A stretch of 64,000 bases of DNA from UHGV virus genome UHGV-0279745; one strand, given 5' to 3'. Positions 9,165 through 52,784 of the stretch are shown here, piece after piece. The number at the start of each line of letters is the position of its first letter. Position 1 is the first letter of the stretch. The position numbers and the translations under genes were made by a program. The stretch is from a virus. The notes under the pieces are model-generated. The model had not been told where the DNA came from. It did not search any database and was given only the letters and a program-made list of their open reading frames with translations.

Positions 9165-9190
9165 TAAAAGCGCGTAAAGGTAAAACAATA

Positions 9191-9814: not shown

Positions 9815-9820
9815 CCGCTT

Positions 9821-9899: not shown

Positions 9900-9934
9900 T
9901 TACACCGACTTGTTAACCTAAAGGAGTATTTACA

Positions 9935-38954: not shown

Positions 38955-38990
38955 TACCCTACTCCTTATCGGGAGTAGGGTAGTTTTTAT
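38955..38990. terminator. terminator between convergent genes
   Basis: ACCCTACTCC-ttatcg-GGAGTAGGGT followed by TTTTTAT on the plus strand. Confidence 0.65.
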
Positions 38991-39469
38991 TATTCCGCAG
39001 GATGGAGCATTGTTCCGGTGTCAGGAGCTACACCTTCTTTACAGTGGAAGAAAGTAATGCCTTTACCATCACCCGTTTTATATTCTAAAGTAGAATACGC
39101 AAACGTTGGTGTTTTTGAAAGTAACCCATTTACACGGTAGTAACGTTGCCCCGTGATAGGATCGATATTTCCATTAACTTTACCTAATAAATCTTTATAA
39201 AGTTGGGGTGACTCAATCTTACCATTTGGCCAAGTGGCTACCCAGTTAGCGCCAGTATCGATCACAGTTACTGAACCTAACATTAGGTTAGTCGAACTAA
39301 CGACAGGTTTGTAATTTACAAAATCCTGCTCTACACCCATACAGGTGTAAATAACCATGTCGTGTGGCTCTACGGGTACAGTTGAGAATTGGCCGTTAGC
39401 GGTGGGTTGTAAAGCACATCCTGCTAATGAAAAAACACCAACCATAGCGATAAGAAAACGTTTTAGCAT
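38990..39469 (-). CDS. lipoprotein (signal peptide with lipobox LAGC)
   Basis: MLKRFLIAMVGVFSLAGCALQP has a type II signal peptide/lipobox; start trimmed from the ORF-track 39529 to ATG 39469. Confidence 0.6.
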   Translation of the reverse strand: MLKRFLIAMVGVFSLAGCALQPTANGQFSTVPVEPHDMVIYTCMGVEQDFVNYKPVVSSTNLMLGSVTVIDTGANWVATWPNGKIESPQLYKDLLGKVNGNIDPITGQRYYRVNGLLSKTPTFAYSTLEYKTGDGKGITFFHCKEGVAPDTGTMLHPAE

Positions 39470-39531
39470 GTTTTCACCTTTTATAAAAAAGTTAAAAATA
39501 ATAATTTTACAGACGACCCTTACTGCCATCT

Positions 39532-39607: not shown

Positions 39608-40144
39608 ATGGCTAAAGCTTTCAATCTGCAGCTCATTGAAGCTGTTAAAGCTAAAAACCCAGACACTGCGTCTAAACTGACCGTAGAAGACGTTGATTTT
39701 GGCGCTGTTGCTGCGTTCAGCGGCAAATCTGGACGTAATACTAAAATTACGCTGACTGCAAAAGAAAAAAGTGCTAACTTTACCGGCAGCAAAGAATTCC
39801 ATTATATCCGTCTGGCATCCCAAGACCTGATCGGTGCTAAAGCTTACCAGCAGGAAGGTAGCCTCGAACTGGAAAACGCTGCCATTGTAGCCAAACTGAA
39901 CGAAGAGATGGTTACTAAAGGTTATGTAGATGACGCGTTTGCAGAAGGCGAACTCACCATCGAAAAATCTGATGGCGAAAGCGGTGCTAAAGTTTACACC
40001 GTTAAAGTAAACGATGCGCACATCAAATTCTTAGCCGGTACCATTGCCACCTTCACCTATACCAACCCGGTTCCTCCGAAGGTAGCTCTGAGCGGCCTGG
40101 AAGGTGAACTGGATAGCTTCACCGCTCCGGGTATCGGGGGCTAA
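39608..40144 (+). CDS. family-X paralog with high-expression codon usage (putative abundant virion protein)
   Basis: Family signature (TKITLTA...FHYIRL); strongly biased codon choice (CTG, CCG, GGT/GGC, CGT, AAA, GAA) unlike neighbours. Confidence 0.65.
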   Translation: MAKAFNLQLIEAVKAKNPDTASKLTVEDVDFGAVAAFSGKSGRNTKITLTAKEKSANFTGSKEFHYIRLASQDLIGAKAYQQEGSLELENAAIVAKLNEEMVTKGYVDDAFAEGELTIEKSDGESGAKVYTVKVNDAHIKFLAGTIATFTYTNPVPPKVALSGLEGELDSFTAPGIGG

Positions 40145-40214: not shown

Positions 40215-40745
40215 ATGGCAGCTACTAACCAGATGATGTTGGTCGCGCTTTATAATGCTGCTAACACTGAGCTACCACATCAGATTACTGATAAAGAAGT
40301 GTCCTTTGGTCTCCCTACTGCGCTGGAAGGCGAAGGTAAGAATACCAAAGTTACCATGACTGCACTGCCGGGTTCTGAGAATTTCAAAGGCGCAATCGAA
40401 CTGAAATACGATCGTCTGGAGCCGGGTGTTGTAGGTCGTATTGAGCTAACTGACGATCTGTCTCGCTGGGTTCAAGAAAATGAACTGCGCGCTTGGTTAC
40501 AATATTACATCAACAAAGTAAAACCTGACGACGCTATCGCACCAGCTGACGTTGTGTACAACACCGAAGACCAGAAAGACGAACATGAAAACGTCACTCT
40601 GCGTACCGTGACGTGCACCGTTACTGAAAGAAACCTCCGTTATAAACCAGGTGTAATGGCAACTTTCGTAATTACGCCGAAAGTTGTTGATAATCGTATT
40701 GACCTGGCCACCACCAACGGCGAGCTGGACGGTTTTACGTCCTAA
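40215..40745 (+). CDS. family-X paralog with high-expression codon usage (putative abundant virion protein)
   Basis: Family signature (TKVTMTAL...LKYDRL); similar codon bias; bidirectional terminator follows. Confidence 0.65.
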   Translation: MAATNQMMLVALYNAANTELPHQITDKEVSFGLPTALEGEGKNTKVTMTALPGSENFKGAIELKYDRLEPGVVGRIELTDDLSRWVQENELRAWLQYYINKVKPDDAIAPADVVYNTEDQKDEHENVTLRTVTCTVTERNLRYKPGVMATFVITPKVVDNRIDLATTNGELDGFTS

Positions 40746-40801
40746 GAAAAAATAAAAATACCTACCTCCTATTACGGGAGGTAGGTATACTATTTTTTTT
40801 C
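40746..40801. terminator. bidirectional rho-independent terminator
   Basis: TACCTACCTCC-tattacg-GGAGGTAGGTA flanked by an A-run (left) and T-run (right), between convergent genes. Confidence 0.8.
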
Positions 40802-40809: not shown

Positions 40810-41481
40810 TTACAGCCCTTGCTCTAACGCAAACGCTTTTATCGAATCGTAATCACGTGCTTCAGCCCAAGCCCTGACTTCTCTTTTCTGCTCAGACATT
40901 GCGTGGTGTAGTTTTTGATCGCGCTCAACGATTGCTGCCAGCAACGTCTTGCACTGTTCTAACGTAAACGGTTCGATACGGGTGTTGTTAGCCGTTAACC
41001 AATACGCTGGCGCAGTTTCTGACTGGATATAACGACTCAGTGCTACCTGTGACTTCTCATCTGCCTGGAAAGTGAAATCACCTACCTGAATCTCAGCATA
41101 GCGTGCATCCTGATAACGGAATTCCAAAGCGCTTAGAATTTTCTGAACATCGGTAAAGATGTACCGCACCGTGGAACGTAAACCTGTACGAATTTCTTCC
41201 AGGTCAATCCCCAACGTGTCGTTAACAAAGTCTTTCGCTTTCTGTAGCGTAAACCGTGCTTCGATTTCAGACATGTCGTAGTTACGCATTTGTTCCAATG
41301 CTTCGCGATCAGACATCCCATCAATCAACTTATAGTGCAGTAACGCACAAAACCCTGTACGGCCGTGATCTTCGCTACCGATTTTCTCCATGTAGTTACC
41401 ATGACGATCAATCGGTAAATCGTGCGCAAAATAACGGCGACGGATTTCTTCTTTCGTTAAGCCTTCACCAGTAGCAGACAT
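40810..41481 (-). CDS. hypothetical protein (last gene of rSAM-containing operon)
   Basis: 223-aa ORF overlapping the upstream gene end by 25 nt. Confidence 0.55.
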   Translation of the reverse strand: MSATGEGLTKEEIRRRYFAHDLPIDRHGNYMEKIGSEDHGRTGFCALLHYKLIDGMSDREALEQMRNYDMSEIEARFTLQKAKDFVNDTLGIDLEEIRTGLRSTVRYIFTDVQKILSALEFRYQDARYAEIQVGDFTFQADEKSQVALSRYIQSETAPAYWLTANNTRIEPFTLEQCKTLLAAIVERDQKLHHAMSEQKREVRAWAEARDYDSIKAFALEQGL

Positions 41482-42029
41482 TCATCGTCTCCTTTAATCA
41501 ACCCTAATTCGATTAACAGTTCAAAATCGATATGACGGAATCTTGTGTCGAAGTCCGATTCCCAATCGATACGGATACCCTGGCATTCTTCTGGCGTTAG
41601 CTCAGGAAAAATCACGCTATTAAATTTCTCCCGCTCATCGTAAAACCCATCAATCGGTGAGTTCGGGTTACGTGTTGCGAAGATAGTAATGCCGGGGAAG
41701 GACAATGCCAACACAGTGATAGATTCTGCGCTGGGTTCGCTTAAAGAGCGGCGTAGAAACGCAATTTTGTGACGTGGGAAATCCAATACCCGTTCTTCAA
41801 ACCCTGGGTTACGTTTTTCAATTTCCGCGACCGACAGGTCAGTAAGTTCGGTGCAGTACATTGGGATGATTACAGTCACACCGTGACGAATCAGCAAGCG
41901 TTTTACGTCATCGGTGAAATCTTCACCGTTAATCACCACATAACAACCAAATAGCTTACTGTTTTCCAGAAACTTATCCAGAAGTCGAATTCTACGCTTC
42001 GTAATATTGTTGATCAGAATTGGTTTCAT
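41457..42029 (-). CDS. hypothetical protein (rSAM-operon accessory)
   Basis: 190-aa ORF; start overlaps the 3' end of the radical SAM gene. Confidence 0.5.
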   Translation of the reverse strand: MKPILINNITKRRIRLLDKFLENSKLFGCYVVINGEDFTDDVKRLLIRHGVTVIIPMYCTELTDLSVAEIEKRNPGFEERVLDFPRHKIAFLRRSLSEPSAESITVLALSFPGITIFATRNPNSPIDGFYDEREKFNSVIFPELTPEECQGIRIDWESDFDTRFRHIDFELLIELGLIKGDDECLLLVKA

Positions 42030-43314
42030 CTTTGGCTTCTCTTAATAATTTTTCCTTTTGGGCACGTTCACGAACACAGCGTGGGCAATAACACATGCTC
42101 GTGTCGTGGAACGCTTTTGCTGACGTCGTACCCATCTTCTGTTTCCAGTATTCCGCCACCATCAGTTTCGCTGTCGTCCAGCCACACTGACGTCGTTCAG
42201 CGTGATACGCTTTACGGTCTTCTAACGTTCCTTCCCCGTTCTCGTAAGAAGCCGCCGCGCAGCTACCACAAGCGTGTTTCATCGGACAACCTAAACAGGT
42301 CTCTGGGTAGTTGGTATATTGCGTTTGAATCTCTTCTAACAATTTACCGTTGTCCAGACTGACGAATTCCCGACCTACCAACTCAAACACCGCAGAACGC
42401 GACGTTACCGTTGACATAAAGCGGTTACAGCCAAAGATCTTACGGTCAAATCCTAAGCACGTCATGTGCGTTAACGTCCCACAGAACGGACGTAAGCGTT
42501 CTGGGTTCAGCCGTACGGTGTCATTATACAGTAACTGGTCACGCCAGTTCGGTTCCCAAATCGTATCGAAATCCAACCCTTCTGGAATGATGTGCGATAA
42601 GATATTACGTGGGTTGGTGTGTAATCCTTTCTCAACCCAGTAATCTATCACATCCATCATCTGTAAAGCGATTGACGTCGCCATGCTACGTGGCATAACG
42701 TCTTCGAAAGTTACGTTTCCAGAAATTGTCCCACCGCCAGTAATGTCAATTAATGACTTCATCCCCGCAGCATAGAACGGCAGCGTTTCTAACGTAAAGG
42801 TTGCTTTTACGCCGAGCTCTGCAATGCCAACCTCTTTTAAGTAGTTATAGCCACGTACTGCGGCTTCGTAAGAACCCTGGCGTGTTGTTGTGAATATACG
42901 ATAACGGTCATGGGATTCAGGTAAGCCGTCAATCGAAACCCCAACCGAAAGTTTGTCTTTCCAACGTTCTACAATCTCACGGTTCAACGGACGATCTAAC
43001 AGCGTTCCGTTCGTGGAGATACTAAACATAAACGGTCGGTTGTGTTCTTTACACAACTGCTCAGCGGTTTCAAACGCAGCCAGCAGCAGTTTAGGTTGCA
43101 TGAACGGTTCACCACCGATAATGTCAATAATAACTTCAACATTCGGTTCGTTTTTATCACGTTCAAAACAGGCGTGTAAGAAATCAACAATATCTGCCGC
43201 TTTGTTGTTACGCGGGTACTTACGTTCGTAACAATACTCGCAGTCCAGGTTACACGAAAGGTTGGTTACGATCTGATACGTTAACTGCTTAGGGAATTCA
43301 TTTACTTGACTCAT
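41992..43314 (-). CDS. radical SAM enzyme with C-terminal SPASM-like Cys cluster
   Basis: CNLDCEYC (CxxxCxxC) near the N-terminus, GGEPFM glycine-rich SAM motif, and C-terminal clusters CGTLTHMTC...C and CLGCPMKHACGSC; GAGGGG SD before ATG. Confidence 0.85.
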   Translation of the reverse strand: MSQVNEFPKQLTYQIVTNLSCNLDCEYCYERKYPRNNKAADIVDFLHACFERDKNEPNVEVIIDIIGGEPFMQPKLLLAAFETAEQLCKEHNRPFMFSISTNGTLLDRPLNREIVERWKDKLSVGVSIDGLPESHDRYRIFTTTRQGSYEAAVRGYNYLKEVGIAELGVKATFTLETLPFYAAGMKSLIDITGGGTISGNVTFEDVMPRSMATSIALQMMDVIDYWVEKGLHTNPRNILSHIIPEGLDFDTIWEPNWRDQLLYNDTVRLNPERLRPFCGTLTHMTCLGFDRKIFGCNRFMSTVTSRSAVFELVGREFVSLDNGKLLEEIQTQYTNYPETCLGCPMKHACGSCAAASYENGEGTLEDRKAYHAERRQCGWTTAKLMVAEYWKQKMGTTSAKAFHDTSMCYCPRCVRERAQKEKLLREAKDETNSDQQYYEA

Positions 43315-44221
43315 TTGCCGCCCCTCTATTACGCCCTGCCATCACCACACGACGAATATATTCGTACGCCTCTACACCGATAGAGAAGGCCAGTTGGTTA
43401 CATCCCGATTCCAGAACGTTAGGTGCATTCTGGAGTTGGTGCTCACCACCGTCTGCATTAATCCAAAGACTTTCGCTGCAAACGTTACACCCTTCTTCAA
43501 ACACTTTACTTACTGTAAAGCCGCATTCACGACTATTTACTACATTCAGTCGTTCAATGTTATCCTGAACCTGATAGTAGCCGTAAATAAAGTTCATGAC
43601 GTGGTCGGGCGATAAAGGTTTTGGCATTTTCGCATCTAAGAGTAACGTCATTGCACGGAAACCGTAATGGTAAATCGCGCTGTGCAGCTGAATAATATCT
43701 TCGTGCCAGCGTTTGTCCCCTAAACGGTCCCGTGTCAGGACACCCCAAGTCTGGACATTATCCAGCTCGTAGATCGTTTCCAGTGCTTCGTAACAGCCTT
43801 CGTCAATAAAGCGCATAAACGGGCGCTCAGACGACTTAAACCCATCGATGCTAACGTAGACATTGTCAAACTGTTTTAGCAACGGGAGATGCGATTTACG
43901 CATCTTTAAGCCATTGGTATACAACTGGTGTTTGAGTTCTGGACGAATCACTTTTAATTCGTCAACAAACGCCTCAATTTTACGGGTTGCCAGTAATGGC
44001 TCACCACCCGTCCACTGAATTTCGGTAATGGTTGGATTAGCTTCCAACGCTTCCAAAATTCGTTCACGTTGAAACTCTCGCGGAGAATCTTCACGATTCA
44101 TGTAATAGGCTCCACCGCAGAAGCTACAATCCAGGTTGCACTTGGACGTAGCGACTACGGACAATACGGTGGGTTTATCGTATAAACGATTCGATAACCT
44201 TGGTTCTGCATTGGTTGTCAT
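43298..44221 (-). CDS. radical SAM enzyme (second, shorter; twitch-like C-terminal Cys)
   Basis: CNLDCSFC (CxxxCxxC), GGEPLL motif, C-terminal C-x14-C-x2-C...C; 3' end overlaps the next rSAM start by 17 nt. Confidence 0.85.
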   Translation of the reverse strand: MTTNAEPRLSNRLYDKPTVLSVVATSKCNLDCSFCGGAYYMNREDSPREFQRERILEALEANPTITEIQWTGGEPLLATRKIEAFVDELKVIRPELKHQLYTNGLKMRKSHLPLLKQFDNVYVSIDGFKSSERPFMRFIDEGCYEALETIYELDNVQTWGVLTRDRLGDKRWHEDIIQLHSAIYHYGFRAMTLLLDAKMPKPLSPDHVMNFIYGYYQVQDNIERLNVVNSRECGFTVSKVFEEGCNVCSESLWINADGGEHQLQNAPNVLESGCNQLAFSIGVEAYEYIRRVVMAGRNRGAANESSK

Positions 44222-44242
44222 TGCAGGTGACTCCGGTCGTTT

Positions 44243-45130
44243 TTAAATATAATCAATGGCGAACAAAGGATCGTCGTCTACGTTAGCACCAGGGGTTAAC
44301 AAGAATGGAGAGTTATACGCTTCCAAAATACGGTTAAGGTCTTTATAACGGACATTTAAACGTTCTAAATCCGCTAACGTTACGTTACGGTCCAACACCG
44401 CCGACACTGCTGCTTTCTCTTCGTCAGTTAACGTGACTTTCGTCATTAAGAAACTAACGAGTTTTGCCAGATCCGCTTCTGTTGACGGATGCTCGCCAAT
44501 ACGCGTTTGAATCAAATGCTGCATCCAAGGCTTACGGATGCGTTTTGTGATTTCGTGTTCATCCGTCAGGGCAACCCACACGGAACGTTCACGATCCCAC
44601 ACGAACTTATAGCTATACGCCATTAAATCCGCTAAGCAATTAATCCCTAACGCTTCGTACCCTTCAATTTCGATATACGATTCCGTATCGAAATAGTTCT
44701 TCGTTTCTGGTGTTACCAGGGTAAAGAAATACGGGAACGAACCTAAGTAATCCGGCGACCACCAACGACGGGCAACCGGTTTTGCGCCCATTTCTTCAAA
44801 TGGGGTAAAGAACAATTCCATATCTACGGAGTTATTCAAAATCCCGTCACTAAAGAAATATTTACCCGCAACCAGTTTACCACGCAACTCGGAGTCACCG
44901 GTAAAGACCACTACACTTTCTGCCGTCAGATCACGAATCTTAAACGTATTTTCTACACGATAGTTTTTACGATCGGTGAAGAAACGTCCGCGCACTTTAG
45001 GCCATTCGCCCGGCAACTGAGTCAACAGACGAACTTCATCTGCTAAGTGTGCACGTACGGAATCAGGGGAAGAAATGTGAAGTGGATGATTGAAAATTGT
45101 TTTGTACGCTAAATGTAAATCATTCTTCAT
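44243..45130 (-). CDS. hypothetical protein (rSAM-operon accessory)
   Basis: ORF 44243-45142; ATG 45130 preferred (TGGAG 7 nt upstream). No motif recognised. Confidence 0.5.
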   Translation of the reverse strand: MKNDLHLAYKTIFNHPLHISSPDSVRAHLADEVRLLTQLPGEWPKVRGRFFTDRKNYRVENTFKIRDLTAESVVVFTGDSELRGKLVAGKYFFSDGILNNSVDMELFFTPFEEMGAKPVARRWWSPDYLGSFPYFFTLVTPETKNYFDTESYIEIEGYEALGINCLADLMAYSYKFVWDRERSVWVALTDEHEITKRIRKPWMQHLIQTRIGEHPSTEADLAKLVSFLMTKVTLTDEEKAAVSAVLDRNVTLADLERLNVRYKDLNRILEAYNSPFLLTPGANVDDDPLFAIDYI

Positions 45131-45279
45131 TGATTGCTCCAATTATTTCACGGTCAAACGGACATTCAGGGTATAGAAACCACCGCACCGTTGCCTACCG
45201 ATAACTTGAAACTCAGTAGTAAACCCGTACAATTAACTCAGTTATTGCGTAATAGACATACTACCACTGGAGGGCTTAG

Positions 45280-45486
45280 TTACCTTCCCCCCGCACCTTT
45301 ACTACAGCTACCACTGCACGACCAGCTACATCCGCCGTTACAGTTATAATGGCTTAAAGGTAAACCGGCAAGGTTATTGGTTGAAGACACAGTGCCCTGG
45401 TTTGCAATATAGTTGTTTGCGTTAGCGGTCGTAATATACCCTTCCGCTGTTACTAACCGATCACGAAGGTTCTTAAGGCTAATCAC
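45280..45486 (-). CDS. Cys-rich repeat protein C (short paralog)
   Basis: GTG start 2 nt after the stop of paralog B with GGGAGG SD; N-terminal ISLKNLRDRL then NCNGGCSWSCSGSC. Confidence 0.55.
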   Translation of the reverse strand: MISLKNLRDRLVTAEGYITTANANNYIANQGTVSSTNNLAGLPLSHYNCNGGCSWSCSGSCSKGAGGR

Positions 45487-45488
45487 AA

Positions 45489-45887
45489 TTACCTCCCAGA
45501 ACACCCACCAGAACAACTACCTGAGCAGCCTGCAGAACAGTTTCCTACACACGAGTTAGAACAACTCCCCGTACAGCTTCCTGAACAGCCACCAGAACAG
45601 GTATTCGAACATCCACTACAGCCTGCACTACAACCTGATACACAGTTTGCAGAACAGGAAGAACCACAGCCGCCTGATGCGTTCCCTGTACAACCACCAG
45701 AACAGCTCGAACAGGTCCAGCTACAGCTCCCACCACAGTCATAGTGGTTGCGAGCTTGCCCACCGAATAAGTCTGCGTTGTTCGTCGCTTTCCCACGAAT
45801 ATAGTTTTGTACTGCACCCGTATTCTTCAATGCAGTGTTGTCAATGTTATTTAGCCGCGCTTGTAGCGCAGGTAATCCAATTGCCAT
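45489..45887 (-). CDS. Cys/Gly/Ser-rich CxxxC-repeat protein B
   Basis: Strong SD (AAGAGGTGA); ~45-aa N-terminal region then DCGGSCSWTCS and ~20 CxxxC-spaced Cys. Confidence 0.65.
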   Translation of the reverse strand: MAIGLPALQARLNNIDNTALKNTGAVQNYIRGKATNNADLFGGQARNHYDCGGSCSWTCSSCSGGCTGNASGGCGSSCSANCVSGCSAGCSGCSNTCSGGCSGSCTGSCSNSCVGNCSAGCSGSCSGGCSGR

Positions 45888-45897
45888 TTTTCACCTC

Positions 45898-46293
45898 TTA
45901 GGTTGGGCCAGAACAGCCACCAGAGCAAGCACCAGAACAACCCGTAGAACAACGGCCCGAGCAAGCACCCCCACAGGTCCCACTGCAACCTGAGCAGCCA
46001 CCGGAACACGTTGAACTACATCCAGTACACTGGTTACCGCACGCAGAGGAGCAGCTACCTACACACACTGACGTACAGGTGCCCGAACAACTCGTACAGC
46101 CATGCGTACAACCGTTTGAGCACGTCCAGCTGCAACTCCCCCCGCAGTCTAACCGACTTGGCGTCCAACCCGAAAAAGTGTCGGCGGCATTATGTGCTTT
46201 CGACGCAACTTGCGGATCAACACGTGGGCCAGTTGCCATTTGGTTCTCTACGTTGGTGATTCGGTCACGTACATTTTTAACACTGATCGCCAT
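45898..46293 (-). CDS. Cys/Gly/Ser-rich CxxxC-repeat protein A
   Basis: N-terminal MAISVKNVRDRITNVENQ... then DCGGSCSWTCS and a CxxxC-repeat core; first gene after the minus-strand terminator. Confidence 0.65.
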   Translation of the reverse strand: MAISVKNVRDRITNVENQMATGPRVDPQVASKAHNAADTFSGWTPSRLDCGGSCSWTCSNGCTHGCTSCSGTCTSVCVGSCSSACGNQCTGCSSTCSGGCSGCSGTCGGACSGRCSTGCSGACSGGCSGPT

Positions 46294-46304
46294 CACGTAT
46301 CCTT

Positions 46305-46350
46305 AAAATAAAAAAGAATGGAGGACTACGCCCATAAGCATAGTTCCTCC
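46305..46350 (-). terminator. rho-independent terminator (minus strand) between fibritin-like gene and Cys-rich gene A
   Basis: Minus-strand RNA forms GGAGGAACUAUGC-uuaugg-GCGUAGUCCUCC followed by a U-run (A-run 46307-46315 on plus). Confidence 0.65.
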
Positions 46351-46360: not shown

Positions 46361-47560
46361 TTATTTCGTACCCGCTTCTGCCTGAACGTCATCACGGGAC
46401 GTCAAGTTAGCGTTAACGTGTACTGAAGCCTGAACCACACCACCGTATTTCTTGTGGAGATAGCCTGTGTGTGGGTTATCTGCCGCAATATGGTTTTGCA
46501 GGTTCTGATTCGCCTGACTGATCGCGTTCGTGTTATTCGCGACCTGTTGTTTAAGCGCATCCAAGTTTTGTTGCAGATTATCAATTTTCTGATCGGACTC
46601 ATTACCCCGCTGTTCTAACGCAGCAATGCGCTGAATCGCTTGATTGAGTTTGGTGCTCAGATCGTTGATATTTTTCTGTAACTGTAACACTAGCGAATTT
46701 AGGTTCGCCAATGCCAATGCCATTTTCTGGTAGTTTTGTGCAACGATGTTAAGTTGGTCGTTCCACGCTTCCAAAGATTTGACAACAGCATCAATACGTT
46801 TTCCTAACGCTTCATCCGCTTTCTTCAACGCATTAATATCAGTAATGGTTGCATCGATGGCAGACTGTACGTCACGGATAAGTGCACGGATCTCCGTTTC
46901 TGTTAACCCGTTAACCTGGTGAATATCCAGATGGTGGACGTTACCCGTGGCGTTAATGTGCGCGTTCAGCGCGTCCAGGAAATCGTTTTTCAGGCTTTCG
47001 AGAATCGCTTTGATGTTCTCAAGCTGTACAGCATCGCCCGCCGTTATCGCATCTTTAATGCCAGCGAGCACTGTAATGATATATTCGAAGCCGTAAATAT
47101 CGCCGACGTCTTTATACGTCGGTGCCGACGGAAATGTATCAGGAACATTTCGCAAGTCTTTAAAGCCAACAGTTCGATTATCGAGATTCAACTCAGCAAT
47201 CGCCTGTTCTATCGCAGTCACGTTTGCCGACTGCGGACCCCCGACTACTTGCGCCGATACCGTGATATCGGTCGGAATCGCGGTGTTCGTTACAACAACC
47301 GCCATTACCACTTCCCGGTTCTTCGTCAATTTCTCGTAAGCCGGGTGTGCAAAAATCAACTCATAGTCCGTTCCGCGCTCATACGTCGCATCGGGGCGGT
47401 TAGCAACCCGCAAGCGGAACGTATCAGCATAAAACGGACCGTCAGGAAAAGCAAACGCACGGTTAACTTTACCTGTGCCTAACGTAACCTGACGCTCCAC
47501 GGCGTTAGAGGTTAGGGTTCCCGTTAAATCTAAAGGGTATTGGTATACAATGGAGGCCAT
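46361..47560 (-). CDS. fibritin-like coiled-coil fibre protein
   Basis: N-terminal domain shared with the three giant fibre proteins (PDGPFY...GTDYELIF); long Asn/Gln/Leu/Ala-rich heptad region; start trimmed to ATG 47560 after AAGGAGAG. Confidence 0.7.
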   Translation of the reverse strand: MASIVYQYPLDLTGTLTSNAVERQVTLGTGKVNRAFAFPDGPFYADTFRLRVANRPDATYERGTDYELIFAHPAYEKLTKNREVVMAVVVTNTAIPTDITVSAQVVGGPQSANVTAIEQAIAELNLDNRTVGFKDLRNVPDTFPSAPTYKDVGDIYGFEYIITVLAGIKDAITAGDAVQLENIKAILESLKNDFLDALNAHINATGNVHHLDIHQVNGLTETEIRALIRDVQSAIDATITDINALKKADEALGKRIDAVVKSLEAWNDQLNIVAQNYQKMALALANLNSLVLQLQKNINDLSTKLNQAIQRIAALEQRGNESDQKIDNLQQNLDALKQQVANNTNAISQANQNLQNHIAADNPHTGYLHKKYGGVVQASVHVNANLTSRDDVQAEAGTK

Positions 47561-47600
47561 GGCCACTCTCCTTAATCCGAGACGTCCTTGTCTCGTGGCG

Positions 47601-50600
47601 TTAAGATGTAAACATAAGATTGAACTGGAGCTTATCGATATCGCGGGTTTGTGCTGGGTTAACCGCATCGTACGTGGTTGCCACGTAGACCGTTAATGTC
47701 CCGTCAGCAAACGAAGTTTTCACCGGTGGCGTAGTCCCTGTCTGTCCATCAGTTACAATGACGACAGGTTGAGCCGGGAGTTGATGGAACTGACCCTTAA
47801 CCGCTTTATACACCAAACCAGATTGCGCTGATAACTCCGTGTCGGTATAGACGATAAACGGCGTGTCGATATCTGTCTGTTTAATGACAGTGTTCGTCTC
47901 AACGTCAATCAGCTGAACAGCACCGAACTTCGTACGGTAGCTATCGTATTCATTTTTTGGAATGACAAACGTAGCATGTACACGGACTTCTTCGGCGGGC
48001 TTAAATCCGGCGTGTTCTTTTTCCAGATAGCTGTTAGCAGTTAACGTTACTGTCTGTTCAGTCATCGTACCACCAGACTGGTTTAACCCGTAACGAACTT
48101 GGGTTATACCTGTCGGAGCCGCAAGCCTGATTTTTAGTCTACGGTTAGCGGTGCCGGGATTACCAGGCACTCTAACACGCAGGCTCAAAGCCAGATATGC
48201 ATTCGTACCGGTAGTCGGTTTCGTATACGCACCCAACCACTTCATATTCGCGGTTGCCGCTTGACTGTTCTCAGAAGCAGTAGCCGCTACAACGTTTGCA
48301 GCGACCGCTTTCTGCCAGAACTGGTCAGCGCAGTTCTCATACGCTACTCTACCGATACTTTTATAACCTGCATAGGTTTCCTGTATCGGCAGATTGGGGC
48401 GTGTTGTGATCCCGCTCAACGCATTCCATCTCTGACCATCGACATACCCCGCACCATTGCTCGCGGATGCCGTGGGGGCTTTCAGCGGTTGGTTAACCAA
48501 GGTTTGGAGTGGACCCGTTTTTCGATCGTACGCCGCTGCAACGTCGTGCTGATCTCTAACAGCAGCGTGTTCTTCTAATTCACGAACCCTGCCTAACCGT
48601 TTCACTTTATCGATGTTAATAGCAACTATGCGCTTTTTATCGGTTGTAACTGTACCAACAAATAATCGCGAAGTCGTATCCGGCAGCTTTTCCAGCCCGA
48701 TCCGATATTGAGCTTTCGAACCTACAAGAGCAGCATGAACATAGAACGTCTGGTTAGCATGGTTTTCTGGGAATTCGTTGCTTAAATCCACCGACCACGT
48801 CGGTAATGTATAGCTATTACTACCGAAATCTAACCTGACCTCTTCCGTCAAGTATAGAATCCAACCTTCCGCAGTCTCCACGCCTGCAATAATAACCGCC
48901 TGCCCCGCTGTTGAGAATGTGGTATCATTAACGAACTCTTCGACTGTATATGCGTTACCTGAACAGAAAACGCGGTCAGCTTTAGAGAAAATTCGTGCCA
49001 TCTTGTCCCAATTACCCGCACCCATGTAACAACCAGATTCTGGGTTGTGGGCAGGAGCCATCTGACGCAACTGTGACTTACCGGGAACGCGAGTCCAACC
49101 CGACCCAGGGTTAAAGGTATACTTCGCAGCGTAACCCAAAGCATTTAGGTCCCCGATATTCCGTATTGTCAGCGTATAAGGCAACCATAGACCGAAGTTT
49201 ACACCGTCGGCAGAAGCAAAAATTGGCTGGCCTACACGTCGCGTTTTATTGCCCGCTTCTTCCCTCAGAGACTGATAACTTAAGCCGTAATCAAGGTCTA
49301 AGAACCAATCAACGAGTTTGAAAGTAGCCGAGTTAAAACGTAGATAACCGTTTTCTTTGGTCGGACTTACCATGAAGTAATAGATGTCGAGAACTCGACG
49401 TCCGTTACTCAGGGTTTTCATACATGAGACTTGTAATAAGTCGAACTCACAAACAGTGTTAATGCCTAGCAACCAGAGCGCAAACAACGCGTTGCCGCTT
49501 TGGTGTGCTGCACTGATGCGTTCGTTCGCGTAACCGTTTGCTTGACCAGATGGTGCACCGTCGACAATCATCCTAATCATCTTCTGGCGATCCGCTTCCT
49601 CTAACGTCAGCCGTTCTGATGACAGGGCAAAGTTACCGTAGATGTTTCGATATGGGAAGGTTTCCGCTTTCGTCAAATACCAACCGTTTAATTGCCCGTG
49701 ACGCTCCTCAGGAGTCATGCAAGCAGCCATACAGCTTAACTGTTCGTAAAGGGTTGCATCAACTTCTCGACGGTTGTTGTTCGGACCATAACCACTATAT
49801 CCGGGAACGTCATAAGGTTTACTTGGGTCAACTTCTACTTCGATCGTATAGCGGTTGCGCGGATTGGATAGCCAAACCTTATTCGAACCACCAATACCGA
49901 CAGGATGAGAAAGACCGATTGTATAGATAGAACCGCGACCTTTATCCCATGTAAATGTTGCTTCGCCTGAGGTATTGTTTGGGTTATCATAACGCAGATA
50001 ATCAAAAAACTCTTTGCCTTGCGTACTTTTAATAGTAACGTTCGGCATCTGGTCCGCATCGTTAATCTGCCAGCAGGAAAGCATCATTCCCGAGACATTA
50101 GGTTTAGCATACGTCGCAAAACAACGATTGTTTGCTTGGCCGCCACCCCACTTACGACTGGTTTCTACAGTTGAGCCATCCGCGAACGTCAGTGTGGTAG
50201 TATCAACCTTAATGGGGAAACGTTCGGCACCCTCTAACGTAACTCTGCCCGTTAACGTATCGATTGTGAAACTTGTTGACCATTGACGGAAATTAATCGT
50301 CGAACCGTCGGCAGCCGCAAACCACACGGTGGGTACATGGTTCACACGAATCACGCTGTCGCGCACCGCACAAGCATGGCTACATTCTGGACCGTGAACA
50401 AAACTGTGACCGATTGTCCATTTAGCCCGTGCCTCTGGCGGGTAATACGTAAAGAACTGACCAGTCTGCGACTCTTCGGTCTTCTGACCAATTCGTAAAC
50501 AGAGGTTATCTCCGAATTGCCCCATTTCTCCGGTTAGGGTTACACGTTCAAATTCTAACTCAGTATTGTTAGTCAAATCGGCTTTACGTAAACGCCATGC

Positions 50601-52784
50601 CGCCACGGCATAAGCAGAGTTATTTACCGTGGAACGAAGAAGATAAACGTGGTCGTCAACTAACACAACATCGTCGGCTTCTGGCCAAGGATTCCAGGTT
50701 TGTTCCACAGTACCGCTGGGGTTGCCATTACGGTACTTAGGCATTGTAACACGACACACCACCGTGTGTTTACTGTGGTCCATCGAACCATTGAACAACA
50801 CCAAATAACGGTTATTGTCAGAACCCAGACAAATAATCGCTTCCTGACCACCGATCAATATCGCTTTTAAGGTCACCCCAGGGTATTTACTCATCCCAAC
50901 AGGATGGTATTTCACCGAAGTTTGCTGAGGGTTCACAAACACATTCGACGTATTGATATCAGCATAGCCGTAGTAAATAGCCTCTGTACCAGGTACACCA
51001 TTAGAAGCATTACGTAACGAATAAACTTTACCTTGTTGGAATCCTACAACGCCTTTCTGATAGGACTGGTTCTTTGTAAAACCTGAATAATTACCGAGCG
51101 CCGGAATGGGTAAGAAGTTTTTGTTACCGAACTTCGCCCCACCGACAGTCCACGCAGGTAAGATGGTATTCAGTTTATCAGAAACTTTCTTGATCTCTTT
51201 TGCGAACAACCACCCTTGACGCGAAGTGGCAGCTTTATCGTTCGTGGTATCAATCGCATCCCACAACTGTAAGATACCATCCACAGTCGCACTGCCAATC
51301 GGGACATTATCCAAATCGGCGGTAGTGTGCGTGTGCTCCTTCACACTTTTATTTTTCAGCACATTCGCTAACGCTTTTGTTACCGGTTTAGCGATCGGCA
51401 TGGTGTTATCCATCTTATCGATACCGAAATCGGTTTTCGTTAAGGTTAACACCATTTTATCGCCCGTCTTAACAAACCCTTTACCGTTAACCGTATAGTC
51501 ATCGTCAACGTACAGGTCCAAGCGGTCTTTTAATTCGGTCACCGCCTTTTGGGAAATAGCAGTGCCTAGTGCTACGGATGTTGCGATATTCGTAATCGAA
51601 AACACCCCATAAACCGACTCGGTTGCTGTGGGAATATTCGCGTTCAACGTTAGCGGATTAGACTGCTTCGCCGTACCGTACGGTTTTACGCTGTCTGATG
51701 GTTTGAAATAGGCATTCGCTTCAAGTAACGTTACAGACGTCAGGTACATGTTCACCATTTCTGGTGTAACCAAATACACAGAGTTGTAAACCGGCGCTAA
51801 TACATCCTGCTCTGACCCAGAGTGTACCCAAAGCGTATTCAGTCCCGCACTAAATTCAACCGCTAAACCCGATTCGTTGTTGTCCTGGTCCGCTTTAATC
51901 ACTAACGGTTGCGGTGAGGTAATTAACCACTTATCACCACGGATACTGATAATGTGCCCGCCTGCGGTTTTAAACGTCAGTTCGTTACCGTTCGTGCTCC
52001 CCCATCGACCGTAAACAGTGCCGAGGGCTTCACCCATTAACTGATCAACGTCTGACTGCTCAATACCCGCCGAACCCATCAGCGTAGCCAACTCGTCAAT
52101 CGTCAGTCCAAACGCTTTTGTCGCGTCAACAGCACGTCCCAAAACCGGAAGGGCACCAACGTCAGTGGTCGTATACTGGTGTGCGTTAGGATTAAGGTGG
52201 TGTTGGTATAACTCCTCGTCGAAAACCTTTTTACCGTTCTCGTAAATCAGGTTAGTGACTTCGGTAAACGCTGCATCTAACTCTGTTGAACGTTGAACGA
52301 TTTTCTTACGGATGTCGTTTAACGCTTTAACAACCTCATCCCTCAGAATAGCTTCTTCTAAGTTAGCAGGAGGATCGATGGGTTGAATAACTGGCGCATA
52401 CGCCATTAACTCTGACCAGTCCACGTTACGTGGGTCTTTCAGGTCAGTACGAACTAAGAACTTTCCGATTTCAGATTGCGGTACACGATACTGGCGTGCT
52501 ACCCCTAAAATCTCATATTCGATTTCTGTTGCGGTCAGCAACATGAACCCGCCGTAGATCTGATCTTGCTCAGCTTCTGCGAGTTCTTTAAAGTAATAGC
52601 CTAAATAGTAGTCCAACCCCTCAATCAGAGTACGACGTCCGTTAGGCGCGGTATCGTCGGCTACTGTGAGTTTTAATCCGATACGATAAAAAGGTCCTTC
52701 AGGCGGAATGACCACATTAAATCGGTTAGGGTACGTCGCTGTGCTTAACGTACCGTTAAACTGCGCCGCGTCTTCTCTCGGCAT
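47601..52784 (-). CDS. giant virion fibre/spike-like protein (1727 aa)
   Basis: N-terminal domain (PPEGPFYRIGLKLTV...GLDYYLGYYF) shared with neighbouring fibre proteins; AGGAG SD. Confidence 0.75.
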   Translation of the reverse strand: MPREDAAQFNGTLSTATYPNRFNVVIPPEGPFYRIGLKLTVADDTAPNGRRTLIEGLDYYLGYYFKELAEAEQDQIYGGFMLLTATEIEYEILGVARQYRVPQSEIGKFLVRTDLKDPRNVDWSELMAYAPVIQPIDPPANLEEAILRDEVVKALNDIRKKIVQRSTELDAAFTEVTNLIYENGKKVFDEELYQHHLNPNAHQYTTTDVGALPVLGRAVDATKAFGLTIDELATLMGSAGIEQSDVDQLMGEALGTVYGRWGSTNGNELTFKTAGGHIISIRGDKWLITSPQPLVIKADQDNNESGLAVEFSAGLNTLWVHSGSEQDVLAPVYNSVYLVTPEMVNMYLTSVTLLEANAYFKPSDSVKPYGTAKQSNPLTLNANIPTATESVYGVFSITNIATSVALGTAISQKAVTELKDRLDLYVDDDYTVNGKGFVKTGDKMVLTLTKTDFGIDKMDNTMPIAKPVTKALANVLKNKSVKEHTHTTADLDNVPIGSATVDGILQLWDAIDTTNDKAATSRQGWLFAKEIKKVSDKLNTILPAWTVGGAKFGNKNFLPIPALGNYSGFTKNQSYQKGVVGFQQGKVYSLRNASNGVPGTEAIYYGYADINTSNVFVNPQQTSVKYHPVGMSKYPGVTLKAILIGGQEAIICLGSDNNRYLVLFNGSMDHSKHTVVCRVTMPKYRNGNPSGTVEQTWNPWPEADDVVLVDDHVYLLRSTVNNSAYAVAAWRLRKADLTNNTELEFERVTLTGEMGQFGDNLCLRIGQKTEESQTGQFFTYYPPEARAKWTIGHSFVHGPECSHACAVRDSVIRVNHVPTVWFAAADGSTINFRQWSTSFTIDTLTGRVTLEGAERFPIKVDTTTLTFADGSTVETSRKWGGGQANNRCFATYAKPNVSGMMLSCWQINDADQMPNVTIKSTQGKEFFDYLRYDNPNNTSGEATFTWDKGRGSIYTIGLSHPVGIGGSNKVWLSNPRNRYTIEVEVDPSKPYDVPGYSGYGPNNNRREVDATLYEQLSCMAACMTPEERHGQLNGWYLTKAETFPYRNIYGNFALSSERLTLEEADRQKMIRMIVDGAPSGQANGYANERISAAHQSGNALFALWLLGINTVCEFDLLQVSCMKTLSNGRRVLDIYYFMVSPTKENGYLRFNSATFKLVDWFLDLDYGLSYQSLREEAGNKTRRVGQPIFASADGVNFGLWLPYTLTIRNIGDLNALGYAAKYTFNPGSGWTRVPGKSQLRQMAPAHNPESGCYMGAGNWDKMARIFSKADRVFCSGNAYTVEEFVNDTTFSTAGQAVIIAGVETAEGWILYLTEEVRLDFGSNSYTLPTWSVDLSNEFPENHANQTFYVHAALVGSKAQYRIGLEKLPDTTSRLFVGTVTTDKKRIVAINIDKVKRLGRVRELEEHAAVRDQHDVAAAYDRKTGPLQTLVNQPLKAPTASASNGAGYVDGQRWNALSGITTRPNLPIQETYAGYKSIGRVAYENCADQFWQKAVAANVVAATASENSQAATANMKWLGAYTKPTTGTNAYLALSLRVRVPGNPGTANRRLKIRLAAPTGITQVRYGLNQSGGTMTEQTVTLTANSYLEKEHAGFKPAEEVRVHATFVIPKNEYDSYRTKFGAVQLIDVETNTVIKQTDIDTPFIVYTDTELSAQSGLVYKAVKGQFHQLPAQPVVIVTDGQTGTTPPVKTSFADGTLTVYVATTYDAVNPAQTRDIDKLQFNLMFTS

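What the first reader, a model, noticed from the sequence alone, without database searches (positions are those of the whole stretch)
41457..46350. Candidate phage-encoded radical-SAM maturation system: three Cys-rich repeat proteins plus two overlapping rSAM/SPASM enzymes
Directly seen: on the minus strand, after a terminator at 46305-46350, come three tandem paralogous Cys/Gly/Ser-rich genes (45898-46293, 45489-45887, 45280-45486), a 299-aa unknown ORF, and two radical SAM genes (43298-44221 and 41992-43314, overlapping by 17 nt), followed by two overlapping unknown ORFs. Both enzymes carry CxxxCxxC and GGEP motifs, and the larger has a C-terminal SPASM-like cluster (CLGCPMKHACGSC). Established knowledge: SPASM/twitch rSAM enzymes commonly crosslink Cys-rich peptides (sactipeptides, ranthipeptides/SCIFF) or modify proteins (anaerobic sulfatase maturase). 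Inference: the Cys-rich proteins are substrates, giving either a crosslinked virion component or a released modified peptide. I cannot recall a described phage system with this architecture.
Basis: partly seen in the sequence, partly recalled or inferred. Interest (0 to 1): 0.92.

Follow-up and report, generated by a model that had tools for sequence, protein, structure and literature searches.

The report
Radical-SAM-matured cysteine-ladder tail-fibre module
A giant Salmonella-type phage encodes three small proteins made of a cysteine at every fourth position, next to two radical-SAM enzymes of the kind that cross-link peptides. In other phages the same cysteine run is the far end of the tail fibre, so phages probably use antibiotic-style peptide chemistry to build part of their host-recognition apparatus.

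Summary
The window is an SPN3US-like jumbo phage. The three Cys/Gly/Ser genes are real: all 21, 20 and 4 cysteines are conserved while synonymous sites are saturated.

The large enzyme is a radical-SAM/SPASM protein. Its best matches are PapB and the NCBIfam 'CXXX-repeat target' maturase TIGR04115, and its best solved relative is the thioether-forming CteB. It scores far below both family cut-offs and has no RRE domain. The small enzyme is a twitch-like radical-SAM protein, not a SPASM one.

Of 80 viral loci with a relative of the large enzyme, 78 carry a same-strand CX2-3 cysteine run within a few kb.

The new point concerns tail fibres. In P2-like and lambda-like prophages and in other phages, the same cysteine run is the C-terminus of true tail-fibre proteins. 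It is followed by the same accessory protein, which has a novel fold, and the same enzyme pair.

My best reading is that this is a RiPP-like cassette that covalently cross-links a tail-fibre tip module, rather than a released peptide. The chemistry and the presence of these proteins in virions are inferred, not shown. In SPN3US the cysteine genes are unannotated or called in the wrong frame, so published virion proteomics could not have detected them.

I rate it a new variant of a known, bioinformatically defined kind, of high interest.

The parts
46304..46350 (-). Intrinsic-terminator-like hairpin (stem 46320-46350) plus U-run. It separates the gp167-like structural gene from the Cys-rich genes.
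   Evidence: RNA fold -21.4 kcal/mol, z -5.24, 0 of 200 shuffles as stable; sequence read.
45898..46293 (-). Cys-ladder protein 1 (131 aa). It has a 49-aa N-terminal helical or junction part, then an 82-aa core with 21 Cys, mostly at CX3 spacing, and no Asp or Glu.
   Evidence: phrog_6085 at 1.6e-40. TIGR04114 at 14.4 bits, below the cut-off of 20. Purifying selection with 21 of 21 Cys conserved.
45489..45887 (-). Cys-ladder protein 2 (132 aa). It has a 50-aa junction part containing NNADLFGGQ....YDCGGSCSWTC, then an 82-aa core with 20 Cys.
   Evidence: TIGR04114 at 20.4 bits against a cut-off of 20. 20 of 20 Cys conserved. The AF2 model has a helical N-terminus and a low-confidence core, pLDDT 48.
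45280..45486 (-). Cys-ladder protein 3 (68 aa, GTG start). This is a minimal version with the junction part plus CNGGCSWSCSGSC only (4 Cys).
   Evidence: Orthologues are 84-90% identical in SPN3US and the Erwinia phage. A similar trio with a minimal third member occurs in L089.
44243..45130 (-). Accessory protein (295 aa from the ATG; the ORF is callable from TTG at 45142). It is conserved next to the enzyme pair in every related locus, has a novel fold, and is a presumed substrate-presenting or assembly factor.
43298..44221 (-). Small radical-SAM enzyme (307 aa). It has CX3CX2C, a GGEP motif and three conserved C-terminal cysteines (twitch-like). It has no SPASM domain.
   Evidence: PF04055 at 6e-14. 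Only generic rSAM hits in NCBIfam. Homologues are paired with the large enzyme in prophages. Conserved cysteine columns. Fused to the large enzyme in L029.
41992..43314 (-). Large radical-SAM/SPASM enzyme (440 aa), a predicted thioether-type peptide maturase. It has no RRE domain and carries an extra C-terminal CxCxxC motif in the jumbo-phage clade.
   Evidence: PF04055 at 3.4e-15. PapB at 1.2e-33 and TIGR04115 at 6.5e-33 over the full length. Conserved C278, C286, C296, C340, C343, C349, C352 and C377. CteB 5WGG at E 4e-38, aligned from chain residue 102.
41457..42029 (-). 190-aa ORF overlapping the 3' end of the large rSAM gene by 38 nt. It is conserved only in SPN3US-like phages and its function is unknown.
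   Evidence: phrog_7988. No Pfam or NCBIfam hit. The profile search of the PDB gives nothing significant.
40810..41481 (-). DUF4376 protein (223 aa), the last gene of the minus-strand unit. A DUF4376 gene also lies just downstream of the enzyme pair in the unrelated phage contig L088.
   Evidence: PF14301 at 8e-11. phrog_8169, with a weak tail-protein phrog_2837 hit. L088 context.
40758..40788 (.). Bidirectional terminator-like hairpin that closes the convergent transcription units.
46361..47668 (-). Context gene: orthologue of the SPN3US gp167 virion (tail-side) structural protein, immediately upstream. The true start is probably the internal ATG giving MASIVYQYPL.
   Evidence: phrog_2163 at 7e-104. 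Synteny. gp167 was detected in SPN3US virions (PMC5694885 Suppl. Table 1).
47601..52784 (-). Context gene: orthologue of the SPN3US gp168 baseplate or tail-fibre candidate (1727 aa).
   Evidence: Synteny. gp168 is a tail protein and baseplate/tail-fibre candidate (PMC5105663 and PMC5694885).

Best explanation
The locus is a four-component, RiPP-like maturation cassette for a tail-fibre tip module.

**Components**
- The three small proteins are stand-alone versions of a C-terminal 'cysteine ladder': a junction motif ...NAD.LGGQ....Y.C.G.CSW(T/S)C followed by (C-x-x-x)n made of Gly, Ser and Thr. In other phages this ladder terminates true tail-fibre proteins.
- The large rSAM/SPASM enzyme is related to PapB, CteB and the CXXX-repeat maturases.
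- The small enzyme is a twitch-like rSAM protein.
- The accessory protein has a novel fold and probably stands in for the missing RRE domain by binding or presenting the junction region.

**Proposed action**
In the reducing cytoplasm, where disulfides cannot form, the two enzymes install covalent cross-links along the ladder. The most likely chemistry is Cys-S to backbone or side-chain carbon thioethers. This would turn an intrinsically unstructured run into a rigid, reduction- and protease-proof rod or knob. [quoted passage not shown]

**Shown**
- The genes are real and conserved.
- The enzyme family relationships.
- The tight enzyme/Cys-run co-occurrence.
- The fusion of the module to tail fibres elsewhere.
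- The conservation of the accessory protein.

**Inferred**
- The substrate relationship.
- The thioether chemistry and its acceptor atoms.
- The division of labour between the two enzymes.
- The accessory protein's role.
- Virion incorporation.
For: **Enzymes**
- The large enzyme's top NCBIfam hits are PapB (1.2e-33) and the TIGR04115 CXXX-repeat maturase (6.5e-33, full length). The Cys proteins hit the partner family TIGR04114.
- Scores to TIGR04115 rise continuously through related viral loci: 115, 157, 183, 191, 242, 266, 400 and 444 bits against a cut-off of 350.
- The best solved relative is CteB, a thioether-forming SCIFF maturase, at E 4e-38 including the SPASM region.

**Co-occurrence**
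- 78 of 80 IMG/VR loci with a relative of the enzyme have a same-strand (C-x2-3)>=5-C run within -4 to +5 kb (median about 1 kb upstream).
- Only 4 such runs occur in the 286 kb of flanking sequence outside that range, and none elsewhere in the window.

**Tail fibres**
- In a Campylobacter P2-like prophage the order is baseplate J, Tail_P2_I, tail fibre (PF12571) ending in the Cys run, a 250-aa accessory protein, the large rSAM, the small rSAM, then the sheath.
- In Deferribacter and another GpJ-type prophage, a fibre with the same NADQLGGQ..YYRCS.CSWTC junction precedes the accessory protein and the enzymes.
- PHROG tail-fibre families (E down to 1e-55) occupy the N-terminal parts, and phrog_6085 the C-terminal part, of these proteins.
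- The junction region is homologous at E 1e-9 to 1e-15.
- Gut-phage loci that are true TIGR04115 members lie just after baseplate-wedge and tail-fibre genes.

**Other support**
- The accessory protein is present in all 31 loci of the clade except L021.
- The small and large enzymes are fused in L029.
- In the window the cassette is the 3' end of the tail-fibre gene string.
- All cysteines are conserved under saturated synonymous divergence.
- AF2 gives no fold for the unmodified core.
Against: - No biochemical or proteomic evidence exists for any modification or for virion incorporation.
- SPN3US gp161-gp166 are absent from the 86-protein virion list (PMC5694885 Suppl. Table 1). This is weak evidence, because the true Cys ORFs were not in the annotation that was searched.
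- The window's three proteins are short and lack a recognisable fibre shaft or baseplate-attachment domain.
- Some related loci (L028, L088, L089) carry small stand-alone substrates away from obvious tail genes.
- A terminator-like hairpin separates the Cys genes from the structural gene upstream.
- The core has no Asp or Glu, so the one characterised chemistry of the nearest family (PapB, Cys to the carbon next to a carboxylate in CXXXD) cannot apply as such.
- The large enzyme scores far below the curated cut-offs of both nearest families.
Confidence: 0.5

Rival explanations
1. This is a released RiPP. The roughly 49-aa N-terminal parts would be leader peptides. The cross-linked Cys cores would be cleaved off and act as free peptides, for example as a bacteriocin, a superinfection-exclusion factor, a signalling peptide or an anti-defence peptide, in or outside the infected cell.
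For: The architecture of short precursors followed by rSAM/SPASM enzymes is the classic RiPP layout, and the family hits are RiPP maturases. Three tandem paralogous precursors are typical of RiPP clusters. Some related loci have small stand-alone precursors that are not next to tail genes (L028 and L089). The enzymes and neighbouring products were not found in SPN3US virions.
Against: No protease, transporter or immunity gene is detectable among the conserved neighbours. The supposed leader is homologous to the internal shaft-to-tip junction of 250-600-aa tail-fibre proteins, where it cannot be an N-terminal leader. The cassette sits in tail-fibre gene strings in four unrelated phage types. 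The large enzyme lacks an RRE.
Confidence: 0.15
2. The cysteine runs are metal-binding, Fe-S-binding or disulfide-bonded fibre elements, comparable to the metal-ion-stabilised tips of other tail fibres, and are not covalently modified. The rSAM pair would then act on something else, or only assist cluster or metal loading.
For: Dense CX3C arrays are good metal ligands. Metal ions on the axis of phage fibres are established knowledge for T4 gp37 and gp12 (from my own knowledge; not tested here). The core lacks the acceptor residues used by PapB. AF2 finds no fold for the apo monomer.
Against: The near-obligate linkage of the run to a SPASM peptide-maturase homologue (78 of 80 loci) is hard to explain without an enzyme-substrate relationship, as is the curated pairing of TIGR04114 with TIGR04115. 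Neither enzyme resembles cluster-assembly or metal-chaperone proteins.
Confidence: 0.12
3. The two rSAM enzymes serve a non-peptide function, such as nucleotide or cofactor modification, a viperin-like activity, or activation of a glycyl-radical enzyme. Their adjacency to the Cys-rich genes would be incidental.
For: There are weak hits of the N-terminal rSAM core to MoaA, QueE, NrdG and viperin models. Some SPFM genomes annotate the genes as MoaA or AlbA.
Against: Those hits cover only the generic core and score 25-50 bits, against 115-117 bits over the full length for peptide maturases. Co-occurrence with Cys runs holds down to 24% identity. No partner genes for such pathways lie in the locus.
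Confidence: 0.03

Closest known systems
NCBIfam TIGR04115 'radical SAM peptide maturase, CXXX-repeat target family' with its target TIGR04114 / Pfam PF27846 (tSAM_targ_Cxxx)
   Same: Both pair an rSAM/SPASM enzyme lacking an RRE with a neighbouring protein that carries tandem C-x-x-x repeats rich in Gly, Ser and Thr. The window's large enzyme aligns over the full length of the model. Related viral loci grade into true members at 400-444 bits. Cys protein 2 reaches the TIGR04114 cut-off, and homologues carry PF27846.
   Different: The window enzyme scores 115 bits against a cut-off of 350, so it is a divergent sister branch. That branch adds an obligatory second, twitch-like rSAM enzyme, a novel-fold accessory protein and a conserved ...Y.C.G.CSWTC junction motif. 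To my knowledge the family's product and biological role are uncharacterised. The searchable literature says nothing about a phage or tail-fibre context.
PapB/PapA (freyrasin) ranthipeptide system of Paenibacillus polymyxa (NF047865)
   Same: This is the closest biochemically characterised relative by family score (1.2e-33). PapB is an rSAM enzyme with two auxiliary clusters that installs six consecutive thioether rings in tandem CXXXD motifs (PMC12373016). That is a repeated four-residue-spaced Cys ladder, as here.
   Different: The score of 117 bits is below the cut-off of 340. The phage cores contain no Asp or Glu, so the acceptor must differ. The substrates are 68-132-aa proteins or tail-fibre C-termini rather than a small secreted peptide. 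Two enzymes plus an accessory protein are needed rather than one.
CteB / SCIFF maturase (PDB 5WGG; TIGR03974)
   Same: This is the best solved-structure relative (E 4e-38), covering the rSAM core and the SPASM domain. It forms a Cys thioether in a Cys-rich peptide.
   Different: CteB has an N-terminal RRE of about 100 residues, which the phage enzyme lacks; the alignment starts at CteB residue 102. SCIFF precursors are peptides of about 45 aa with six Cys, not long CX3 ladders.
His-Xaa-Ser system (HxsB/HxsC paired rSAM maturases)
   Same: It pairs a SPASM-type and a smaller rSAM enzyme acting on a tandem short-repeat protein. HxsB and HxsC are among the hits of the large and small enzymes respectively (3.9e-21 and 4.5e-10).
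   Different: The repeats are His-x-Ser rather than Cys-x-x-x. Scores are far below the cut-offs, and there is no phage or fibre context.
Tail-fibre assembly chaperone systems (e.g. P2 gpG, T4 gp38/gp57A)
   Same: The cassette occupies the same genomic slot, immediately after the tail-fibre gene, in the P2-like prophage. The presumed purpose is also the same: producing a stable distal fibre tip.
   Different: Those are non-enzymatic folding chaperones. Here the slot holds two radical enzymes and a novel-fold protein with no detectable similarity to known chaperones.

Membership tests
Radical SAM superfamily (PF04055) | CX3CX2C cluster motif, a GGE SAM-binding motif and an HMM score above the gathering threshold | tested here: met
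   Large enzyme: CNLDCEYC, IGGEP, 57 bits against 29.5. Small enzyme: CNLDCSFC, TGGEP, 53 bits against 29.5.
SPASM-domain rSAM enzymes | C-terminal seven-cysteine set (C..G..C, gap, CX2CX5CX3C, gap, C) for two auxiliary 4Fe-4S clusters | tested here: met
   For the large enzyme, C278, C286, C296, C340, C343, C349, C352 and C377 are invariant or nearly so across 16 relatives down to 27% identity. The spacing is CX2CX5CX2C. The region aligns to the SPASM parts of TIGR04115 and CteB. The Pfam SPASM model itself did not hit at E <= 0.1. The small enzyme has only three conserved C-terminal cysteines, so it is not SPASM.
TIGR04115 CXXX-repeat-target maturase (equivalog_domain) | Score at or above the curated cut-off of 350 bits | tested here: not met
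   114.7 bits, though over the full length (residues 10-371 to model positions 3-345 of 359). Related viral loci reach 400 and 444 bits.
TIGR04115 CXXX-repeat-target maturase (equivalog_domain) | Adjacent target protein with tandem CXXX repeats | tested here: met
   There are three adjacent targets. 17 of 20 and 16 of 19 Cys-Cys gaps are 3 residues. 78 of 80 related viral loci carry such a run.
TIGR04114 / PF27846 CXXX-repeat target | Repeat HMM score at or above 20 bits | tested here: inconclusive
   Protein 2 scores 20.4 bits (just met). Protein 1 scores 14.4 and protein 3 scores 12.4 (not met). Homologues carry a weak PF27846 label. PF27846 is absent from the local Pfam copy.
PapB family ranthipeptide maturase (NF047865) | Score at or above 340 bits | tested here: not met
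   116.8 bits.
PapB family ranthipeptide maturase (NF047865) | Substrate with Cys-X3-Asp/Glu motifs, the acceptor carbon lying next to a carboxylate | tested here: not met
   The cores contain no Asp or Glu. The PapB chemistry is taken from PMC12373016.
SCIFF maturase / RRE-dependent RiPP rSAM enzymes | N-terminal RiPP recognition element (PqqD-like domain) | tested here: not met
Released RiPP biosynthetic cluster | Leader peptidase and/or exporter or immunity gene in the cluster | tested here: not met
   The accessory protein, the 190-aa ORF and the DUF4376 ORF give no protease or transporter hits in Pfam, NCBIfam, PHROGs or PDB profile searches. A host protease cannot be excluded.
Phage tail fibre protein | Recognisable fibre shaft or baseplate-attachment domain in the same polypeptide | tested here: not met
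   The window's three proteins have only a roughly 49-aa helical or junction part. The homologous module is, however, fused to true tail-fibre domains in L005, L022, L024, L029 and L030.
Phage tail fibre protein | Presence in purified virions | not testable with these tools
   The SPN3US virion proteome lists gp167-173 but not gp161-166. The correct Cys ORFs are unannotated or called in the wrong frame in SPN3US, so they could not have been identified.
Non-peptide rSAM functions (NrdG activase, QueE, MoaA, viperin) | Full-length match above the curated cut-off | tested here: not met
   Only N-terminal core matches were found: 28-47 bits against cut-offs of 131-284, and pVip 45-47 bits over about 100 residues.

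The most novel reading that the evidence does not exclude
Many unrelated phages end a tail fibre, or a small fibre-associated protein, in a ribosomally made cysteine ladder that radical-SAM enzymes staple covalently inside the reducing host cytoplasm. These phages include jumbo myoviruses, P2-like and lambda-like prophages, and abundant gut phages. This would be the first case of RiPP-type enzymology building a virion structure. It would also give a biological role, maturation of the phage host-recognition apparatus, to the orphan 'CXXX-repeat' rSAM system (TIGR04114/TIGR04115). The chemistry would probably be new, because the ladder has no carboxylate acceptor.
Probability: 0.45. Interest if true: 0.9.

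Novelty: new variant of a known kind. Interest (0 to 1): 0.8.

Why it matters
If true, it links two fields that have not met: radical-SAM peptide natural-product chemistry and phage structural biology.

- **A new stabilisation principle for virions.** Enzymatic thioether-type stapling would be made in the cytoplasm, where disulfides cannot form, and would add to known means such as metal ions, chaperone-assisted trimerisation and HK97-type isopeptide bonds.
- **A function for an orphan system.** The widespread CXXX-repeat rSAM system would gain a testable role.
- **Possible new chemistry.** A cross-link acceptor other than Asp or Glu is implied.
- **A gap in a model phage.** Three conserved genes in SPN3US are missing or mis-framed in the reference annotation, and so were invisible to its virion proteomics.
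- **Practical relevance.** Fibre tips determine host range, so this bears on phage engineering. PapB-like enzymes are being developed as peptide-stapling tools, and enzymes that staple Gly/Ser/Thr ladders would widen that toolbox.

Tried and rejected
2. **Structure of a Cys-ladder protein.** AF2 with 18 sequences gave pLDDT 48 and an unstructured core, which is uninformative about the mature form.
4. **Defence-system models.** PADLOC gave only generic viperin-core hits, so I rejected this.
5. **Literature.** Ten searches, on SPN3US with radical SAM, CXXX-repeat, ranthipeptide with phage, SPASM with tail fiber, PF27846 and others, found no description of this system. The Haft & Basu 2011 and Hudson 2019 papers were not held.
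6. **Accessory protein in the gut-phage loci.** I looked for it in the loci that are true TIGR04115 members and did not detect it. Those loci have a different 180-200-aa neighbour with no PHROG hit.
7. **Trp cyclophane idea.** I considered that the invariant Trp in CSWTC marks a cyclophane cross-link made by the small enzyme. Loci with the alternative junction motif (...GD..I..GC.SGC, no Trp) also have the small enzyme, so I dropped this as unsupported.
8. **Searches not run.** I did not run the genome contigs or metagenome scans.

Full report
**Observation.**
- The three Cys/Gly/Ser-rich genes are 45898-46293, 45489-45887 and 45280-45486. Each is preceded by a Shine-Dalgarno-like sequence, and the third starts at a GTG.
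- A 299-aa ORF lies at 44243-45142. Its likely start is the ATG at 45130.
- The small radical-SAM gene is 43298-44221 and the large one is 41992-43314. They overlap by 17 nt.
- Two further overlapping ORFs follow, at 41457-42029 and 40810-41481.
- The hairpin upstream (stem 46320-46350, then a U-run) folds at -21.4 kcal/mol. No shuffle out of 200 is as stable.
- A bidirectional terminator-like hairpin at 40758-40788 closes the unit.

**Source of the window.** The window is a jumbo phage of the SPN3US (Seoulvirus) group.
- The rSAM region is about 72% identical in DNA to SPN3US and its relatives.
- Gene order matches SPN3US gp161-gp170.
- An IMG/VR contig of 225 kb carries an identical large enzyme (L007).

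**The Cys-rich genes are real.** Orthologues of all three exist in SPN3US and in Erwinia phage pEa_SNUABM_29.
- Synonymous sites are saturated (pS 0.62-0.83) while pN is 0.08-0.22.
- All 21, 20 and 4 cysteines align.
- In SPN3US two of the three genes are unannotated. The third is replaced by a wrong-frame call, gp166.
- Gene callers rarely find these genes. Only 18 homologues were returned from 5.8 billion proteins.
- Each long protein has an N-terminal part of about 49 aa, then an 82-aa core with 20-21 Cys, mostly at CX3 spacing. The core is otherwise Gly, Ser and Thr and contains no Asp or Glu.

**The enzymes.** Both have the CX3CX2C and GGEP motifs and pass the Pfam Radical_SAM threshold.

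*Large enzyme.*
- Its best NCBIfam hits are PapB (ranthipeptide maturase, 1.2e-33) and TIGR04115 ('radical SAM peptide maturase, CXXX-repeat target family', 6.5e-33, aligned over the full length).
- Both scores, about 115 bits, are far below the curated cut-offs of 340 and 350.
- Eight C-terminal cysteines are invariant or nearly so in relatives down to 27% identity, which is a SPASM-type set.
- The best solved relative is CteB, the thioether-forming SCIFF maturase (E 4e-38). The alignment starts at CteB residue 102, so the phage enzyme has no RRE.

*Small enzyme.*
- It gives only generic rSAM hits.
- It has three conserved C-terminal cysteines, so it is twitch-like rather than SPASM.

Hits to NrdG, QueE, MoaA and viperin cover only the N-terminal core.

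**Enzyme-substrate link.** The Cys proteins weakly match TIGR04114, the curated target family of TIGR04115. Protein 2 just reaches the cut-off.
- Several homologues carry PF27846, which is the Pfam version of that model.
- A scan of IMG/VR with an alignment of 16 large enzymes confirmed 485 relatives.
- Of the 80 loci kept, 78 carry a same-strand (C-x2-3)>=5-C run within -4 to +5 kb of the enzyme, typically about 1 kb upstream.
- Only 4 such runs occur in 286 kb of the remaining flanks, and none elsewhere in the window.
- Scores to TIGR04115 rise stepwise through these loci to 400-444 bits.

The window enzyme is therefore a divergent branch of that family rather than a member.

**Tail-fibre context.** Distant relatives of the large enzyme (33-40% identity) lie in prophages of unrelated morphotypes, always directly after a tail-fibre gene that ends in the cysteine run.
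- In Campylobacter pinnipediorum the order is baseplate J, Tail_P2_I, tail fibre (PF12571 N-terminus, C-terminus ...GCNGCSGSCSGSCSSGC...), a 250-aa protein, large rSAM, small rSAM, DUF1353, then sheath.
- In Deferribacter abyssi and another GpJ-type element, a fibre of 258-302 aa ends in ...NADQLGGQAGSYYRCSDCSWTCSSSC... followed by a long ladder. Then come a 250-277-aa protein and the enzymes.
- PHROG tail-fibre families (E down to 1e-55) cover the N-terminal parts of such proteins. phrog_6085, the family of the window's Cys proteins, covers their C-termini.
- The window's 'leaders' are homologous to the internal shaft-to-ladder junction of these fibres (E 1e-9 to 1e-15).
- Gut-phage loci that are true TIGR04115 members also lie just after baseplate-wedge and tail-fibre genes.
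- In the window, the cassette is the 3' end of the string encoding the gp170, gp169, gp168 and gp167 orthologues. These are tail or baseplate proteins in SPN3US virions.

**The fourth component.** The 299-aa ORF is homologous to the 250-aa proteins of the prophages (E 3e-10; weaker for Campylobacter).
- An iterative search finds it in 31 loci, that is every locus of the clade except L021.
- Its AF2 model is confident (pLDDT 85, pTM 0.80).
- The family is tiny, with 44 representatives among 1.84 billion proteins.
- The small enzymes are also homologous across the clade.
- In one locus the small and large enzymes are fused into a single 686-aa protein.

**Mechanism proposed.**
- *Shown:* a conserved four-part cassette of Cys-ladder module, accessory protein, small rSAM and large rSAM/SPASM. 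It is tightly linked genomically, and the ladder is the distal end of tail fibres in several phage types.
- *Inferred:*
  - The enzymes cross-link the ladder covalently, most likely by Cys thioethers as in CteB and PapB.
  - The accessory protein presents the junction region in place of an RRE.
  - The product is a rigid, non-reducible rod or knob on the fibre and baseplate apparatus.
  - Enzymatic thioethers would make sense because virions assemble in a reducing cytoplasm where disulfides cannot form.
- *Open question on chemistry:* PapB needs an Asp or Glu acceptor (PMC12373016) and the cores have none. The acceptor must therefore differ, so the chemistry may be new.
- AF2 finds no fold for the unmodified core. 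This is compatible with a structure that depends on modification, oligomerisation or metal.

**Caveats.**
- Nothing shows the modification or virion incorporation.
- SPN3US gp161-166 are not among the 86 virion proteins, but the correct ORFs were not searchable.
- The window's proteins lack a fibre shaft.
- Some related loci have small stand-alone substrates away from tail genes.
- A released RiPP, a metal-binding ladder, or unrelated enzyme function remain possible, in that order of decreasing likelihood.

**Novelty.** The kind of system is known only as a bioinformatic definition (TIGR04114/TIGR04115, PF27846). Its nearest characterised relative is PapB/freyrasin.
- Ten literature searches found no description of a phage or tail-fibre context.
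- I classify it as a new variant of a known kind.
- The distinguishing features are the tail-fibre-linked substrate, the obligatory second twitch-like enzyme, the novel-fold accessory protein and the acceptor-less ladder.

Noticed in passing
L001 (SPN3US NC_027402) 9167-10196; JN641803 143191-144220: In the reference annotations of the model phage SPN3US, two of the three Cys-ladder genes are unannotated. The third is replaced by a wrong-frame CDS (SPN3US_0166 / ACQ60_gp100). Published virion proteomics therefore could not have identified them.
   Followed up: partly
L029 5131-7188: The small and large rSAM enzymes are fused into one 686-aa ORF with two CX3CX2C motifs. This Rosetta-stone fusion supports their joint function.
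   Followed up: partly
L089 7361-7579; L028 4871-5173; window 45280-45486: Minimal substrates exist with only 2-4 cysteines, for example ...YYDCGGSCSWTASGR and ...GCESCAMGCHGPQ. In L089, as in the window, two long ladder proteins are followed by one minimal one. Why a minimal paralogue is kept is unexplained.
   Followed up: no
L005 8068-8433; L015 8508-9275; L018 8490-9269; L020 8544-9260: A DUF1353-type protein follows the cassette both in the Campylobacter P2-like prophage and in CR5, Phobos and Derbicus-type jumbo phages. A DUF4376 protein follows it in the window and in the unrelated contig L088. These may be further accessory or fibre-assembly components.
   Followed up: no
window 41992-43314 (residues about 413-418, CYCPRC); alignment A1 columns about 466-473: Jumbo-phage versions of the large enzyme carry an extra C-terminal CxCxxC motif beyond the SPASM domain. 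The motif is absent from the prophage versions.
   Followed up: no
Salmonella phages SPFM1, 5-10, 14, 15, 20: In a subset of SPFM genomes the rSAM and accessory genes give only fragmentary BLAST coverage (5-21%) despite strong HMM scores. Either the locus is heavily rearranged or diverged there, or those assemblies carry frameshift errors.
   Followed up: no
window 39608-40144 and 40215-40745 (+): Two tandem paralogues (28% identical, E 2e-17) are related to SPN3US gp160 (35% identical, E 7e-30). gp160 is an abundant head protein of 'paralog family B'. They converge on the cassette at a bidirectional terminator at 40758-40788.
   Followed up: partly
window 38990-39529 (-): This ORF has an internal start that gives a lipoprotein-like signal (MLKRFLIAMVGVFSLAGCALQ, lipobox LAGC). 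It may be a phage-encoded lipoprotein.
   Followed up: no
window 46361-47668 / 47601-52784 (-): The 435-aa ORF call overlaps the end of the 1727-aa gene by 68 nt. By comparison with SPN3US gp167 (MAEIIYQYPL...), the true start is probably the internal ATG giving MASIVYQYPL.
   Followed up: no
L034 7091-8641: In one gut-phage locus the Cys ladder is the C-terminus of a 517-aa protein made of RCC1 beta-propeller repeats (PF13540 at 2.5e-27). The ladder can therefore be appended to different receptor-binding-type scaffolds.
   Followed up: no
PMC5694885 main text versus its Supplementary Table 1: The paper's text lists gp161 among the paralog family B head proteins. Its table lists gp160 (18.5 kDa), which matches the size of SPN3US_0160. 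This is probably a numbering slip and matters when reading whether the DUF4376 protein (gp161) is in virions.
   Followed up: partly
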